A stretch of 64,000 bases of DNA from Escherichia coli. Its GTDB lineage: Bacteria > Pseudomonadota > Gammaproteobacteria > Enterobacterales > Enterobacteriaceae. The position numbers are program-made. Of this stretch, positions 21,001-27,000 are shown in pieces. The stretch lies in NCBI RefSeq assembly GCF_041248615.1, contig NZ_CP158425.1; one strand, written 5' to 3'. Positions within the stretch are counted from its first letter, which is position 1; each line of letters opens with the position of its first letter.

Positions 21001-24000
21001 AATGCTGTTGATTTATATGTCGATAGTATCTCTGAGAATGAAATAGAAGCTTTAAACAGAGAATCTTTAAAATCGCGACTCTGTTACTTTCTTGAGGTGT
21101 TTGACGCAGTCTCTGGTCAGTACCTTGAAATTTCAGGAAAACACTTTGCAACTAGTCGTTTTGAATATGATGATGTTTGTAGTGAAGTTCTTAGCATGTC
21201 TAATGATGTTTCTCAGTCGAAAGGTTATGACCGGGATGAATATAACAGACTGATGCAGGTTGATGGTCAGGTTATGATTGCCCGTTTTGCTTTGCAACAG
21301 TTCTGGGATACTCATTTTATTGGACTAATAACATTTGTATCTGAGTCTATAACATCGAGCCTCTATAAAGCTTATGAAACTTTTAGTGATATTAGTTTGG
21401 CTTGCTATAAACTGAGTGAATATTCTTATTCACGCTCTATCAACAGTGAATTGACCCTTAATATTTCACTTAAAGAAAATGACTTCTGTGAGGACCTATC
21501 TGATTGCTATATGGAAGATGAGGCTTTACCTTCTGGTAGGGTAATTTCTCGACGCAACAATGACTCCATAATAAGTATTTATGAGAGCTATGCTGCGGCT
21601 TCTTATATTCCGATGATTGCATCTTTGGAAGTCGTTGATGAATACGGCGAAGTGGTTACTGACCTCTGCCATACCGTTTATGTTTCAGAGTTAACCGGTG
21701 GGCGGATTAAAATCCACGACCGTAATGACTTAGTATCTGAAGTTTTCGATAACCTAAGAAATTTAAATCTTGCAGTTGGAGATTCAGTTTCACAAGCTGC
21801 TTGATTCTTTCCCTGATTTTGATTTTTTCTCACATACTCTTATGGCACGGTTTCCGTGCCTTTTTTTGCCTCGCTTACAAGCGTCTACTCCTCTTCTACC
21901 TATCCCACCTTACATCACCACTTAAAATCTATCTTTCTAATTCCATTATCCTTTTCGTAGCCTCTAATGCTCTGGTATGAACATACTCTTTAAACTCAAA
22001 AAAGTGCTATTAACGAAAAAAAATCCCTAAAGAGATTTGTATACTGTTCTCAACCAAGGAGAGCTCATGAATGAACTAAAATCCAAAAACGAGAACAGTA
22101 CCAAAAGCAACTTTCCCCCGGTTGATAATCAGTTTTGCTTTTACCATGTTGATTTCAGCATAGAACGACTACTTTCTACGGCCGAGGATCTCCAGCTTGA
22201 GTACATCTTCCAGAAACCTGGAAGTGAAGTAAGAAAGGATTTGGTTGAGCGATTTGAACGTGGAGAGCGCTTTGTTACAGCTTCACACTGTGACAATTTC
22301 TGTGAAATCCTTGGTTGTCAAGGCCATCAGGAAAATGCATAAACCCATAAACCTACATTTCCACTTTTAAGGATGTTCACTAAAGAATGATTGGAGAAAG
22401 TATTTTTGACTGGGTAATTTACGGAATATCCATTTTGATATTTGCCTCAGCACTAATTGAAGGAAAGACAACTCGCTACCCAGCACTTTTTTTCTATGGG
22501 AGTTTAATTTTAATGTTAATCCTGATAGTTGCTGGAGGCCTTAACTGGTGGTTCTACAGGTCAAAATATGGCGCAGTAATCGTTATCTTCACAGTGGTTT
22601 CTTTACTGATGACTCGATTCCGCCTGGTCATATATAAATTAAGATTAAGAAAGTTAGTTTCAGAGATCAGATTTCGTATAAAAACGGGTTTTCGTATAAT
22701 TCTTGTTTTGTCGGATAATGAGGATGAGCGTAATGTTCTGCTGTCTATGCTTAGCAACGTATTGCCAGAGCAAACGCTTATTCACACGCGTGATGCTCTC
22801 GGACCTCATTCAGGGCCTATCCTAAAAGCTCTTGAGCTACATCATCAACAGGGAACAGGTTACATACTCGTCTGTGAACAACAAATCTCAGCGCGTACGT
22901 GGTTGAGTATCGTAGAAAATGGGAAACCTGATACATCTATAGCTGTTAATTTTCATTCGATCCCAGAAATGGAGTGATTTTTCAATGAGTAGAACCGTTT
23001 CACAAAGTGTCACAGAAGATTGTCTTTTTGATACCCGCACACAAGTCAGATTACAACTAAGTCGAAGCGTTCATAAAACGCTGGCATCTGCTAAAGAAAT
23101 TTTACAGGGAAGGGGGGTTGATTCGGTCTCTATTGAAGATCTTGTGCGAGCCTGTCTTGAAGAGAACCAGCCAATTGATCTCGCCTCACTTTACCTTGAA
23201 AATCTCTTAAAACAGAAAGGTACCAGCATTTGCGATTTTTAGTGTTTTCAAACCTATTAGATAAAATGCCGGTTGTGTTTATATAACATCAATAATTTCA
23301 TGCAACAGGTAAAACATGAGTACTCAAAAGCAACTTTCCAGAACAACCGGCACTGAACGTATGTTTAAGGAAGAGCTGGCGTTATCCTTAATTTGTTGGG
23401 TTTTCACCAGTCCATTTACCAACTGGACCGATAAAGTCTTCAGTGGTATTGAAGTTCCGTCTGAAGGACCGTCAACATTACTGGGTGAGGCTGAAAAATT
23501 CTTTCGTTTTGTCGTTAATGAAGAAGGCTACGACGCAGGAAGGGCTGCTCTTGGTCTTGACCTATGTTGTTTTTCACTTCCGTCGTGTTTGTTCCCGGAC
23601 GCTGCCCTGTCTGAGGAAGAGGTTATGAGTAAGTTAACCGGAGAAGTTATCCATGGGATTCTTCTTTCCTTACCTGAATTTATTGATATGCCAGAAGTGC
23701 TCGCTTACCAGGTCAGGGATGAAATTCTTGCTTTTAACACTCGCTGTGGAGACGGGATCTTTCATGGTTGGAACACGGCTTCAGAATTGTGGAAGTTTGA
23801 AATCTTTCCCCGCACCACCATCATGATGCAGCATACTTCGGCAATACATTAAAATTAGGCGGGGCAGAATGCATAAAAAACTTTTTCTTCTCGAATGGAA
23901 ACCCTGTCAGAGCCGCGTATGGGCCGGTTGGATGGCCCTGTGGTTGACTATCAGTTTTCTGATGTTATCTGCCTTGCTTATGACAGATCATCTCCTGAAC

Positions 24001-27000
24001 AAAGTCATCCTGCCGCCAACATGGTTGTTGATCTGGTTTTCGCCAATGCTGGGGTTTTTGATAAAAGTTCGCGTCGTCGAAACTCAACATTTCCTGGAGC
24101 ATGACCTCTGTGTTGCAGGTTTCTCTTTTTACCGCTGGAAGAGGTTAGTTTCTCCCGGGCTTTGGTCAGTTGACTGTATAAATGGTCGTTTTCGCCTCAA
24201 TCGGATCACCCAGGTGGGTAAGACTATCCACTATCCATGGCGTCTCCATTATCATCCTTTGTTCATGAGCCCTATCGAACATAAATCGCATGCTGTGAAA
24301 GCTGTTTCAAAATGACTTCTTTAGAGGTTTACATGACATTTATGTTCTGCAAGGTCAGCCAGGGCAGCAAAATTGATTTGAAATAACATGAGCCTGGAGA
24401 AACGTATGAGTTATGACGATTTGCCCTATTTTCGTGACCAGATTCTGGAACGTATCGACTCGCTTAAGTGTTTTCTTTCGAACACCCCCCCGCTGATGGC
24501 AAACCTGATGACTGTCTCCACCGTATCTCGAACAGAAGAGCGACTGAAGCAGGTTAAACCCATCAGGGTTAGTGTTAAAGACGATGCTTCGGTTGAGGAA
24601 ATTATTCAGGCACTTACTGACATCTGTGTGGATGACATAGAGTCATTAAGTCATGATTCCACCAAAGTGACCACTAAATACCCGGGTCTTATCATTGTCC
24701 CAGAAAGAGCAGATCTTCTCGAAAGCTTGATCACATCTATAAATGAAGCAAAAAATGATTTTGCTGCGGCAATGAGGCGTATCGATAATAAAAAGAATGT
24801 CCGTTTTGATAAAGTGCACAAGAAGCTCCCGGGCCTTGTCGCTATGCACTCAACAAGAAATGTCCTTTTCATCAAGTCCCAGCTTAAAAAAGTTACTTTT
24901 TCATGGCGGCTAAACCGAAACCAGGAAGTTAAAACAGCAGAGCAACTTGTGAGTTTGTTGGAGCGCAGGAGAGCCTCAGAAGTAAAAAATGTAGCAACTA
25001 CCAATTTGAATGTCGTGTCTAATATCGATAAGGCTTTACACCGTCTTGAATTTCACCCACTGAAGCAGGGCGAATCTTATCGCCTTTGTCGAACTAACTC
25101 TTTCCCTGTTCCGATTGCTCACATTTTTGCATTTAGGCCTGAAGGGCAGGAACGAAACGGGAATAAATATGCTGAGACTGATTATTCAGTAGTAAAAGCA
25201 TCCTTGCCCATTTTCGCAGCAGGCAACATACCTCAATTAAAAACGCTCTCTGACTGGGCTCCTGAAAACAGCCAGGGCCCGTCCAACCAACGGAAGCTGA
25301 GCCTGAAATATACAGAACTCGTGCCGGGGGCTGAGCTGGGCATTTTCATTGTCAGCCCCGAAAATTAAGGAACAACAATGCAATGGATTTCCACAGCCAG
25401 CCAGAAAATCGATGAGCGTCTCTATCGTGTCTGCGTCTGGGTAAAAAAATATCACGCTGATGCGATTAACCGCGTTGTGCTTACCGTTGATCTAAGTAAA
25501 GCCCGACATGACCCTGACGAGGACCAGGTAAGAGCAGAGCTGCTGTGCGGCCATTATTTTTTGCTTCGTAAGGAAAACGCTTCGAACTCTGCGCCTGACG
25601 ATCAAAAGTTTGCTTTCCTGCCTGACGGGCGCAATCTGTGTTGGCAGACCGCAACCCCGGTGCTTCAGCATCTCCTGCTCAATAAAAACGTTCCTGAGTC
25701 GCTGAGGTTGCTTACGGACTACATACATATGCGTCTGGCCAGGCTGACAATGGTACCAATGTCCGGAACCATCATGAACGAGGCTCTGCTGGACAGCATC
25801 AGCTGGGTTAAGGTGGATTTGACCTACTTCTGGCAGTATGAACAGCTCAGCTCTCATCTGGGACCCATCCAGATAACCCACAAGGCACTAGTACGCTTCG
25901 GGCATCTGGCAAAGAATGATGAAAACTCCAGTGCCATAAGAATCCTGCGTCAGCGTCTGTCTTCAGAATTCTTACAAGAATTTCAGATGGCTGAGGATGA
26001 GCTAAAGCGCAAACAGTCGTTGATGGGCACCATGGACGTGAAAATGCTGTTTCATGCTCATTACCCCAGCCAGAAGATGCTGGTGGCTCGATATAAAAAT
26101 GGTTGGGTAATGGTGGATTGTTTTCTGTTTCATCATACCAAACCTAAGAAAAAAGCAAAAAACAAAACTACTGTGGCTAAGCCTCAACTTAAAGAGACTA
26201 AAAGAGAAGGGAGTGAAAATGGAACTGGGCATTATGGTGTGCATCGTGTTGTTACTCTCCGTGGCGGCGGCGTGGATCAGTAATAAGACAGTTGATTTGC
26301 TCGAAAGATTCTATTTCAAGCGTCCGCTGAGCATGGAGTACGCGGCATGGCTACGTGTAATGTGTGCAGGCTTGTTATTGGTTTTTATTCAGGTTGCTCC
26401 ACAATTTACACTTCTGTATACCCTTAAACTTGTCACGCTTATTAATCTTGGAATCCAGACAATGAAATTAAATGGCGTGTACAAATATAAAAGAACGGGA
26501 ATTTTGCCTCCGGGAGGGGCACTCTCTAATCTCACCAGACTTAACCCGTTCAAGAAAAAATAAAGTTATGCGCCCGTGAGGGCGCTATTCATCAAAGGCA
26601 TTTCGCATAAGCTTGATCATTGCTTTTTTACCAGCTTCAATATTACGAATGTAGCGCATAACCATTTCTTCATTCGACCAGTTCCCCATTTCCATAATCT
26701 GTGGTAGCGAGTAACCTTCAATATTTAGCTGTATCGCTCCGCCTACACGAACGCTGTGCCCTGTCCAGTAACGAGTTTTAGTCTCATTTGGATAAAGCTC
26801 ATTCCACATCTCTTTAAATGCTCGTAAAAGGGAATTTTTGCTGAGCATACCGGCATCGTCCACAGTGTCTTCTTCATCTTCATCTTCATCGTTCAGAAGA
26901 CTTTGCTTAGCACGATAGGGTAGGTTATGCCTTTTAAGAAGTTCAGATAGCTCATTCCCCTTACTCCGAAGCTTCCAGCCGGGTGGCATATAGCCTGTAT

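What the first reader, a model, noticed from the sequence alone, without database searches (positions are those of the whole stretch)
22067..26563. Eight-gene module of unknown function with three membrane proteins, ending next to a convergent tyrosine recombinase
All eight genes are plus-strand and closely spaced (8-10 bp gaps or overlaps at several junctions), with no recognisable catalytic motif in any product. It includes a 3-TM protein with a soluble C-domain, a 2-TM protein and a small 2-TM protein overlapping the last large gene. A 260-bp CT-rich leader precedes it (21805-22066) and a convergently oriented tyrosine recombinase follows (26585-27775). This could be an IncH-specific regulatory or entry-exclusion set or an unrecognised membrane-associated system; I cannot discriminate from sequence.
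Basis: seen in the sequence. Interest (0 to 1): 0.5.

Follow-up and report, generated by a model that had tools for sequence, protein, structure and literature searches.

The report
IncH plasmid Tus operon, partners unknown
The eight genes are a real, conserved backbone operon of IncH resistance plasmids; one gene encodes the plasmid's own copy of Tus, the protein that stops DNA replication forks, another belongs to a family found in related plasmids and in SXT-type integrative conjugative elements, and the function of the other six is still unknown.

Summary
The window is an IncHI2 mcr-1 plasmid. The eight plus-strand ORFs, their tight spacing, the three hydrophobic products, the pyrimidine-rich leader and the convergent recombinase are all present as described.

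The claim that no product is recognisable is wrong for two genes.
- Gene 6 (24406-25368) is a diverged Tus replication-terminator protein. It keeps the RF..VH..LPG residues of the E. coli Tus cytosine-lock pocket.
- Gene 7 (25378-26283) has an RNase H-like N-domain without the DEDD residues and a RelE/ParE-like C-domain. Its family includes an IncC backbone protein and, by fold comparison, SXT/R391 s073, which is dispensable for transfer.

The recombinase is Cre-like.

The block, plus a ninth gene that IncHI2 has lost, keeps its order in six IncH-like lineages down to about 25% identity. All eight genes are under purifying selection. A strong terminator and a conserved -10-like element precede the block.

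Genes 1-5 were found only in IncH-like plasmids; gene 8 also occurs in one unplaced metagenome contig. No Ter site, lox-like site or defence-system match was found.

Best reading: a plasmid replication-termination and maintenance operon (confidence 0.4), not entry exclusion.

In passing: a palindrome, AAAGTWACTTT, occurs 44 times on the plasmid against about 0.2 expected.

The parts
21844..21870 (+). Intrinsic terminator that closes the upstream transcription unit (GGCACGG-TTT-CCGTGCC followed by a T run).
   Evidence: An equivalent hairpin plus T run stands at the same place in IncHI1, pLEC, L009, L010 and L015.
22036..22048 (+). 13-mer TTTGTATACTGTT, invariant in five lineages, about 18 nt before the g1 ribosome-binding site. 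TATACT at 22040-22045 is the likely -10 of the operon promoter.
   Evidence: Identical in five lineages whose leaders are otherwise diverged. It occurs once in the 238-kb plasmid. The most distant lineage, L015, has TATAAT at this place. No -35 match, so the promoter assignment is an inference.
22067..22342 (+). g1: 91-aa acidic protein with invariant H27, C75, C84 and H87, a possible metal site.
   Evidence: Only weak matches to phage families of unknown function. dN/dS 0.14.
22387..22977 (+). g2: 196 aa, three predicted membrane spans plus a conserved soluble C-domain (RIILVL..EDE, ALGP.SG, NFH.IP).
   Evidence: All 25 relatives found are about 190-200 aa and carry no annotation; those whose neighbourhood was examined lie in IncH-like plasmids. 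No PDB sequence match.
22985..23242 (+). g3: 85-aa acidic protein, possibly DNA-binding. The helix-turn-helix hints are below threshold.
   Evidence: TetR_N E 0.16 and HTH_40 E 0.011 in one member. hhalign to CopG gives probability 1%.
23316..23852 (+). g4: 178-aa acidic soluble protein (DLCCFS.P, FHGW, ELW..EI.PRT conserved).
   Evidence: No match in Pfam, NCBIfam, PHROGs, PADLOC or PDB.
23869..24315 (+). g5: 148-aa basic protein with two predicted membrane spans and a conserved C-terminal part (WSVD..NGRYRLNRI).
   Evidence: dN/dS 0.12.
24406..25368 (+). g6: plasmid Tus, a DNA replication terminus site-binding protein homolog of 320 aa.
   Evidence: Pfam PF05472. NCBIfam NF002810 E 2.6e-14, below the curated cut-off. 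Family profile against E. coli Tus 1ECR gives E 7.6e-18 over Tus residues 7-251, with RF..VH..LPG and R...PIA conserved.
25378..26283 (+). g7: 301-aa two-domain protein with an RNase H-like fold (about 1-150), a RelE/ParE-like fold (about 160-250) and a disordered lysine-rich tail. It belongs to the family of the IncC 241-aa backbone protein and, by fold comparison, of SXT s073.
26219..26563 (+). g8: 114-aa basic membrane protein. Its start overlaps the 3' end of g7 by 65 nt in another frame.
   Evidence: dN/dS 0.06-0.07. It follows g7 in all lineages and in metagenome contig L016.
26585..27766 (-). Convergent Cre-like tyrosine recombinase, a neighbour of the operon and a probable multimer resolvase.
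   Evidence: phmmer against P1 Cre E 1.8e-23. PHROG 1 integrase. Adjacent in five lineages, but separated from g8 by two genes in L010 and four in L015.

Best explanation
The region is one backbone operon of IncH plasmids. It is transcribed from a conserved promoter-like element at about 22040 and ends head-to-head against a Cre-like recombinase gene.

Its one assignable effector is a plasmid-encoded Tus protein. I infer that this Tus binds plasmid Ter site(s), not yet identified, and arrests replication forks in a polar way. That would help a large, multi-replicon, low-copy plasmid finish replication in an orderly manner.

The gene next to it, g7, is a nucleic-acid-handling protein with RNase H-like and RelE/ParE-like folds. 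Related MOBH plasmids and, by fold comparison, SXT-type elements also carry it.

The six remaining products are found only in IncH-like DNA (g8 also in one unplaced metagenome contig). They are three inner-membrane proteins and three small acidic proteins, one of them possibly DNA-binding. I take them to be accessory or regulatory parts of the same maintenance function.

The neighbouring Cre-like enzyme most likely resolves plasmid multimers, as Cre does for P1.

Shown: gene reality, operon-like layout, synteny, Tus homology, the g7 folds and family, Cre similarity.

Inferred: fork arrest on the plasmid, any shared function of the eight products, and multimer resolution.
For: - **Tus homology.** Pfam Ter hit. 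NCBIfam hit E 2.6e-14. Family profile against PDB 1ECR E 7.6e-18 over 245 residues, with the F140/H144/G149 positions and the R232/PIA strand conserved.
- **Selection.** dN/dS 0.06-0.18 for all eight genes.
- **Synteny.** The order g1-g5, gX, tus, g7, g8 is kept in six lineages down to 24-39% identity. The trio tus-g7-g8 is also kept in a distant metagenome contig.
- **Own transcription unit.** A terminator precedes the block, a -10-like element (invariant in five lineages, TATAAT in the sixth) follows it, and no convincing internal terminator was found.
- **Tight spacing.** Gaps are short and g7 overlaps g8.
- **IncC parallel.** IncC plasmids also carry a Tus-like gene, a g7-like gene and a tyrosine recombinase in one neighbourhood.
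- **Recombinase.** It is Cre-like.
- **Literature.** The IncHI2 literature already mentions tus and a potential ter site (PMC5923156).
Against: - **No Ter site.** No E. coli-type Ter lies in or near the module. None is shared by IncHI1 and IncHI2. The single good match in IncHI2, at plasmid position 165985, is not conserved in IncHI1.
- **Partners are not obligate.** g1-g5 and g8 have no homolog in IncC, where tus and the g7-like gene lie about 10 kb apart.
- **g7 can occur without Tus.** A g7-like gene sits next to a recombinase, with no Tus on the contig, in L017. s073 of SXT is dispensable for transfer and has no known function.
- **No precedent.** Membrane proteins have no known role in Tus-Ter systems.
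- **Co-transcription is weak evidence.** In large plasmids it does not prove a shared function.
- **The NCBIfam score is far below the curated equivalog cut-off** (53 against 323 bits).
Confidence: 0.4

Rival explanations
1. The block is a co-transcribed collection of unrelated backbone genes. Tus, an ancient s073-like gene and several lineage-specific small and membrane proteins share a promoter but do not form one system. The conserved order reflects inheritance and operon economy rather than joint function.
For: - Tus and the g7-like gene lie about 10 kb apart in IncC, and the other six genes are missing there.
- A g7 homolog occurs with no Tus on the contig (L017).
- Fold comparison links g7 to SXT s073.
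- IncHI2 lost gX, and it is a pseudogene in the R27-like plasmid, without the rest decaying.
- In SXT the corresponding backbone segment is a stretch of genes individually dispensable for transfer.
Against: Order and spacing are unbroken over very deep divergence, 24-39% identity. All members are under strong purifying selection. g7 and g8 overlap, and gX overlaps tus in other lineages.
Confidence: 0.33
2. The block is a toxin-like or conflict system, acting in addiction, defence or anti-defence. It would be built around the RelE/ParE-like domain of g7, with membrane proteins as effectors or sensors.
Against: No PADLOC match for any product. No recognisable antitoxin partner. The RelE/ParE-like domain is fused to a larger RNase H-like domain in a family that sits in conjugative-element backbones, not in variable islands. 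s073 deletion gave no reported phenotype in transfer assays.
Confidence: 0.12
3. The block is an entry-exclusion or transfer-regulation set.
For: It lies downstream of the Tra2 transfer genes and encodes three membrane proteins.
Against: Entry exclusion of R27 is assigned to EexA and EexB (cited in PMC8923210). I recall, but did not test, that these lie within Tra2 proper. The s073 family is not needed for transfer in SXT. The known IncH regulators (TrhR, TrhY, HtdA, Hha, H-NS) are other genes. No similarity to any transfer protein family was found.
Confidence: 0.05

Closest known systems
E. coli Tus-Ter replication fork trap (Tus, PDB 1ECR)
   Same: g6 is a homolog over Tus residues 7-251. 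It conserves the RF..VH..LPG segment that forms the cytosine-6 lock pocket and the R...PIA DNA-contact strand.
   Different: - About 15-20% identity, and far below NCBI's equivalog cut-off.
- Plasmid-borne.
- Sixth gene of an eight- or nine-gene operon, rather than a single gene autoregulated through TerB.
- No E. coli-type Ter nearby or shared among IncH plasmids.
IncC (IncA/C) plasmid backbone: Tus-like gene, 241-aa hypothetical protein, tyrosine recombinase (pPG010208)
   Same: The IncC 241-aa protein is a full-length homolog of g7 (hhalign 99.8%). The IncC Tus-like protein matches the IncH Tus profile (96%, E 3e-9). Both lie after a toprim (DUF7146) gene and near a tyrosine recombinase.
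   Different: In IncC the two genes are about 10 kb apart. The recombinase is not a close relative of the IncH one. g1-g5 and g8 have no counterpart.
s073 of SXT/R391 integrative conjugative elements
   Same: Foldseek matches the g7 model to s073 of a Proteus ICE (E 4.6e-9) and to many two-domain proteins of 240-260 aa in Gamma- and Betaproteobacteria.
   Different: Only 18% identity. The link rests on predicted structures. s073 is a hypothetical protein, divergent among ICEs and not required for transfer (PMC2791158), so it brings no function.
Cre-loxP of phage P1 (plasmid dimer resolution)
   Same: The convergent recombinase is most similar to Cre among solved structures (E 1.8e-23).
   Different: It is 393 aa with an insertion. 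No 13-8-13 lox-like inverted repeat was found beside it. Its role in multimer resolution is inferred.
RNase H1 and RelE/ParE toxin folds
   Different: Of the RNase H DEDD residues, only the helix-1 glutamate (AEL motif) is conserved. Strands 1 and 4 carry Ser/Thr instead of Asp. No antitoxin partner was found. This fusion of the two folds matches no characterised protein (all afdb50 matches are uncharacterised).

Membership tests
Tus (Pfam PF05472, Ter) | Significant sequence similarity to Tus over both domains | tested here: met
   Pfam hit. NF002810 E 2.6e-14 over residues 18-195. Family profile against 1ECR E 7.6e-18 over Tus 7-251. It does not reach NCBI's equivalog cut-off.
Tus (Pfam PF05472, Ter) | Residues of the cytosine-6 lock pocket (F140, H144, G149 of E. 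coli Tus) | tested here: met
   RFDKVHKKLPG aligns with RFEWVHRHLPG. F, H and P are invariant in nine IncH Tus sequences. The equivalence comes from a sequence alignment, not from a structure.
Tus (Pfam PF05472, Ter) | A cognate asymmetric Ter site on the replicon | tested here: inconclusive
   No canonical Ter in the window. One match in IncHI2 at plasmid 165985 is not conserved in IncHI1. No shared candidates. The site may be too diverged to recognise.
Tus (Pfam PF05472, Ter) | Polar arrest of replication forks | not testable with these tools
   Needs 2D gels, marker-frequency analysis or helicase assays.
s073-like backbone protein of MOBH conjugative elements | Full-length homology and the same two-domain architecture | tested here: met
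   hhalign 99.8%, E 1e-27, to the IncC protein. Foldseek E 1e-14 to 5e-9 to 240-260-aa proteins including s073. HMM hits in L016, L017 and L019.
RNase H (type 1) | RNase H fold | tested here: met
RNase H (type 1) | Catalytic DEDD carboxylates | tested here: not met
   Across 16 family members only E54 (helix 1) is conserved. No conserved Asp lies in strand 1 (I-S-T) or after strand 4 (W-Q-T). Positions were assigned from predicted secondary structure, not from a residue-level superposition.
RelE/ParE toxin superfamily | RelE/ParE fold | tested here: met
RelE/ParE toxin superfamily | Paired antitoxin gene and stand-alone toxin of about 90 aa | tested here: not met
   The domain is the C-terminal part of a 301-aa protein. 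Its neighbours are Tus and a membrane protein. No antitoxin family hit in any neighbour.
Cre-type tyrosine recombinase | Sequence similarity to Cre and the phage integrase catalytic domain | tested here: met
   phmmer E 1.8e-23 to Cre. PF00589. PHROG 1.
Cre-type tyrosine recombinase | Adjacent inverted-repeat recombination site | tested here: inconclusive
   No 11-14-bp inverted repeat with a 6-8-bp spacer in 26400-28550. The conserved 60 bp upstream of the gene has no conserved dyad.
Known anti-phage defence systems (PADLOC-DB) | Match of any product to a defence-system model | tested here: not met
   Zero families for all eight products and the recombinase.
IncH entry exclusion (EexA/EexB) | Identity with the genes shown to mediate exclusion in R27 | not tested
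The literature names them as the exclusion determinants.

The most novel reading that the evidence does not exclude
IncH plasmids carry a self-contained replication-termination and plasmid-organisation system. In it, a diverged Tus works with membrane-anchored partners (g2, g5, g8) and an RNase H/RelE-fold protein (g7) at Ter sites unlike those of E. coli. One small product of the operon, for example g3, would be the factor that reads the 44-copy backbone palindrome AAAGTWACTTT. This would tie fork arrest, plasmid folding and membrane attachment together.
Probability: 0.1. Interest if true: 0.7.

Novelty: new variant of a known kind. Interest (0 to 1): 0.35.

Why it matters
IncHI1 and IncHI2 plasmids are major carriers of mcr-1, of typhoid multidrug resistance and of metal resistance. 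This block matched more than 1,400 sequenced plasmids, yet seven of its eight products are annotated only as hypothetical.

If the plasmid really runs its own Tus-type fork barrier with dedicated partners, that would be a new form of a textbook system. It would also be a possible weak point for plasmid curing.

The work also gives the s073-like backbone proteins of IncC plasmids and, by fold comparison, of SXT elements a first structural description. That description is an RNase H-like fold joined to a RelE/ParE-like fold, and it makes the family testable.

As it stands the finding is a well-conserved but functionally unassigned backbone operon. It is useful to know about, but not surprising to a plasmid specialist.

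Tried and rejected
- **Canonical Ter search.** I searched for GTTGTAAC, GNRNGTTGTAAYKA and weighted 16-mers in the window, the whole IncHI2 plasmid and a whole IncHI1 plasmid. There is no shared site. The one good IncHI2 match is not conserved.
- **The invariant leader 13-mer as a plasmid Ter.** Rejected. It is unique on the plasmid and corresponds to TATAAT in the most distant lineage, so it is most simply a -10 element.
- **The 44-copy palindrome as Ter.** Rejected. It is symmetric, has no strand polarity, and its central base varies between syntenic sites.
- **A lox-like site near the recombinase.** None found.
- **g7 as a Tus paralog.** No similarity.
- **First AF2 model of g7.** With eight close sequences it was unusable (pLDDT 48.6). 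This was solved by adding distant relatives from the exhaustive search.
- **PDB sequence searches for g1, g2, g3, g4 and g7.** Nothing significant.
- **g3 as a ribbon-helix-helix protein.** hhalign to CopG gave probability 1%. Pfam gave only sub-threshold helix-turn-helix hints.
- **Leader as an RNA element.** No Rfam family reached its gathering score, and folding gave z = -0.93.
- **L008 as a distant relative.** It is a frameshift-ridden copy of the same block.
- **Literature.** Searches for functional work on these IncH genes found none.

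
Full report
**Identity of the window**

The 6-kb region is 99.8-100% identical to hundreds of IncHI2 plasmids. The first 25 kb of the window matches E. coli plasmid NZ_LT599829.1, positions 32001-57000, at 100%. The RefSeq annotation of that plasmid fits the window.

The block lies downstream of the Tra2 transfer genes (trhU, trhN, trhI). Between Tra2 and the block are a run of AAA-ATPase, DUF3150, VWA and toprim genes and five ORFs of about 300 aa. Downstream lie a tyrosine recombinase, hha, the ISApl1-mcr-1 insertion and the tellurite genes.

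**Check of the observation**

All eight plus-strand ORFs exist as described and coincide with the RefSeq gene calls.
- The junction gaps are 44, 7, 73, 16, 90, 9 and -65 nt. A further 21 nt separate g8 from the convergent recombinase.
- Hydropathy supports three spans plus a soluble domain in g2, two spans in g5 and two to three in g8.
- The leader is 63% pyrimidine on the plus strand, in the top 0.16% of windows of that size. This is shared only by the nearer lineages.
- The ORFs are real genes. Between IncHI1 and pLEC-1cb1, dN/dS is 0.06-0.18 for each of the eight.

**Conservation as a unit**

The same order is found in six lineages:
- the IncHI2 window;
- IncHI1 (L002) and pLEC-1cb1 (L003);
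- two further IncH-like contigs, L009 and L010;
- a much more distant one, L015, whose proteins are only 24-39% identical to those of the window.

All lineages except IncHI2 carry a ninth gene, gX, between g5 and tus. It has a DUF2913 hit in L010. It is a pseudogene in the R27-like plasmid and is absent from IncHI2.

The recombinase is adjacent in most lineages. It is separated from g8 by two genes in L010 and four in L015, so it is a neighbour rather than a fixed part of the block.

**Transcription signals**

A strong intrinsic terminator (21844-21870) ends the upstream unit. A comparable hairpin with a T run is present in the other lineages.

About 18 nt before the g1 ribosome-binding site lies a 13-mer, TTTGTATACTGTT (22036-22048). 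It is invariant in five lineages and unique on the plasmid. In L015 the same position reads TATAAT. I therefore read TATACT (22040-22045) as the -10 of the operon promoter.

The consensus scan found no convincing terminator inside the block, and its site counts did not exceed those in shuffled sequence. The leader matches no Rfam family above its gathering score and is not unusually structured.

**Gene 6 is Tus**

Evidence for the assignment:
- RefSeq annotates it as a DNA replication terminus site-binding protein.
- It has the Pfam Ter domain.
- It matches NCBIfam NF002810 at E 2.6e-14. This is far below the equivalog cut-off.
- A profile of nine IncH sequences aligns with E. coli Tus (1ECR) over residues 7-251 at E 7.6e-18.

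The segment RFDKVHKKLPG aligns with RFEWVHRHLPG of E. coli. From established knowledge of the Tus-Ter lock, F140, H144 and G149 in that segment line the pocket that captures cytosine 6. The R...PIA strand is also kept.

A paper on an IncHI2 plasmid already notes a tus gene and a potential ter site (PMC5923156).

I could not find the cognate site.
- There is no E. coli-type Ter in the window.
- The only good match on the whole plasmid is GTTGTAACTAA at plasmid position 165985, downstream of trhR. It is not conserved in IncHI1.
- The two plasmids share no candidate site.

**Gene 7**

Its family is tiny at sequence level: 22 representatives among 1.84 billion proteins.

A first model from close relatives failed. 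A model built from 16 sequences including the distant ones is confident: pLDDT 79.9, and above 90 for most of residues 1-257.

The fold searches gave the following.
- Foldseek against the PDB agrees for the N-domain.
- The RNase H carboxylates are not conserved apart from a helix-1 glutamate. R193 is invariant and H226 nearly so in the C-domain.
- Foldseek against AFDB50 shows the same architecture in many uncharacterised 240-260-aa proteins of Gamma- and Betaproteobacteria. One of them is s073 of an SXT/R391 element.

In SXT, s073 is a divergent backbone gene of unknown function that is not required for transfer (PMC2791158).

An IncC plasmid carries a clear homolog (hhalign 99.8%). It lies after a toprim gene, and about 10 kb upstream of a tyrosine recombinase and a Tus-like gene.

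Two metagenome contigs add to this picture.
- L016 keeps the trio tus-g7-g8.
- L017 has a g7-like gene next to a recombinase, UvrD and TraF, with no Tus on the contig.

**The other six genes**

g1-g5 and g8 have no match in Pfam, NCBIfam, PADLOC or PDB sequences. The only PHROG hits are weak ones for g1, to families of unknown function.
- g2 relatives are all unannotated proteins of about 190-200 aa; those whose neighbourhood was examined lie in IncH-like plasmids.
- None of the six has a detectable homolog in IncC.
- g8 also follows g7 in the unplaced metagenome contig L016.
- g1 has invariant His and Cys residues that could hold a metal.
- g3 has only sub-threshold helix-turn-helix hints.

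**The recombinase**

Among solved structures it is closest to Cre (E 1.8e-23). No lox-like dyad was found next to it.

**Interpretation**

The block is a genuine, deeply conserved IncH backbone operon. I put my best weight (0.4) on a replication-termination and maintenance role.
- Tus would be the effector.
- The Cre-like enzyme would be a neighbouring multimer resolvase.
- The other products would be accessory.

The steps from Tus homology to fork arrest on the plasmid, and from co-transcription to shared function, are inferences.

The main rival (0.33) is that the operon is a co-inherited set of unrelated backbone genes. The separation of tus and the g7-like gene in IncC supports this, as does the absence of the other six genes there. 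A conflict or toxin-like system (0.12) and entry exclusion or transfer control (0.05) have little support.

**Seen in passing**

A palindrome, AAAGTWACTTT, occurs 10 times in the window against 0.06 expected from shuffles.
- It occurs 44 times on the IncHI2 plasmid and 41 times on an IncHI1 plasmid, against about 0.2 expected from base composition.
- In IncHI2 none of the copies lies in the IS- and resistance-gene region between 106.7 and 152.9 kb.
- Many copies sit at syntenic places in the two plasmids.
- It is also present in the most distant IncH-like lineage and is absent from the IncC stretch examined.
- One copy lies inside tus (24889-24899).
- It has no strand polarity, so it looks like the site of a dimeric DNA-binding protein rather than a Ter.
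- I found no mention of it in an IncH context in the searchable literature.

**Verdict**

The region is an ordinary-looking but functionally unassigned plasmid backbone operon. It has one known component (Tus), one newly described fold combination (g7) and six genes with no assigned function.

Noticed in passing
window 6250, 6929, 13381, 17126, 20697, 24889, 28340, 46084, 50676, 59807 (11 nt each); whole plasmids NZ_LT599829 and NZ_MW439255: The palindrome AAAGTWACTTT is hugely over-represented. It occurs 10 times in the window (0.06 expected), 44 times in the 238-kb IncHI2 plasmid and 41 times in a 190-kb IncHI1 plasmid (about 0.2 expected). In IncHI2 none lies in the 106.7-152.9 kb IS/resistance region, and many copies are syntenic between the two plasmids. 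It is present in all IncH-like loci examined except L016 and L017, and absent from the IncC locus. It has no strand polarity, so it is probably the site of an unidentified dimeric DNA-binding protein. It was not found in an IncH context in the searchable literature.
   Followed up: partly
L013:19985-20007 (plasmid NZ_LT599829 165985-166007, outside the window): The only good E. coli-type Ter match on the IncHI2 plasmid is AATATTTAAGTTGTAACTAATAT, in the intergenic region downstream of trhR in Tra1. It has T instead of G at Ter position 6. It is not conserved in IncHI1.
   Followed up: yes
window 24277-24347; L003:7433-8041: IncHI2 lacks a ninth gene, gX, that sits between g5 and tus in the other lineages. 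gX is 202-217 aa, with a DUF2913 hit in L010. It is split by a stop codon in the R27-like plasmid. At the place of the loss, IncHI2 has a 16-nt inverted repeat (GAACATAAATCGCATG / CATGACATTTATGTTC).
   Followed up: partly
window 9638-15927 and L019:8962-12726: The run AAA-ATPase, DUF3150, VWA and toprim (DUF7146) lies upstream of the block. A toprim gene also precedes the g7-like gene in IncC and in contig L017. This suggests an old shared backbone segment of MOBH elements, into which IncH inserted extra genes.
   Followed up: partly
window 16798-21804: Five consecutive plus-strand ORFs of 292-318 aa have no family match and are conserved in IncH lineages. Only the last two are detectably paralogous by BLASTP (27% identity, E 3e-37).
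   Followed up: partly
window 27767-27840: About 60 bp directly upstream of the recombinase start are conserved among IncHI2, IncHI1 and pLEC (ACCTGAATACACTG..TTACAG..ATTTTAGCACTG..TTATGAACAGG) without a conserved dyad. This is probably the recombinase promoter or 5' UTR.
   Followed up: partly
L017:3744-6987: In a distant metagenome contig, a g7-like gene is followed on the same strand by a tyrosine recombinase, a UvrD-type helicase and TraF, with no Tus on the contig.
   Followed up: no
L008 (GCA_002230475.1, NLPQ01000051.1): A public assembly holds the same block riddled with frameshifts, which produces chimeric predicted proteins such as P0013. This looks like an assembly-quality artefact rather than a divergent relative.
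   Followed up: yes
window 28510-29592 and 30827-34865: A CoiA_N-domain gene follows hha. In some other IncHI2 plasmids it is cut by IS66-type elements. In this window an ISApl1-mcr-1-PAP2-ISApl1 unit lies just beyond it.
   Followed up: no
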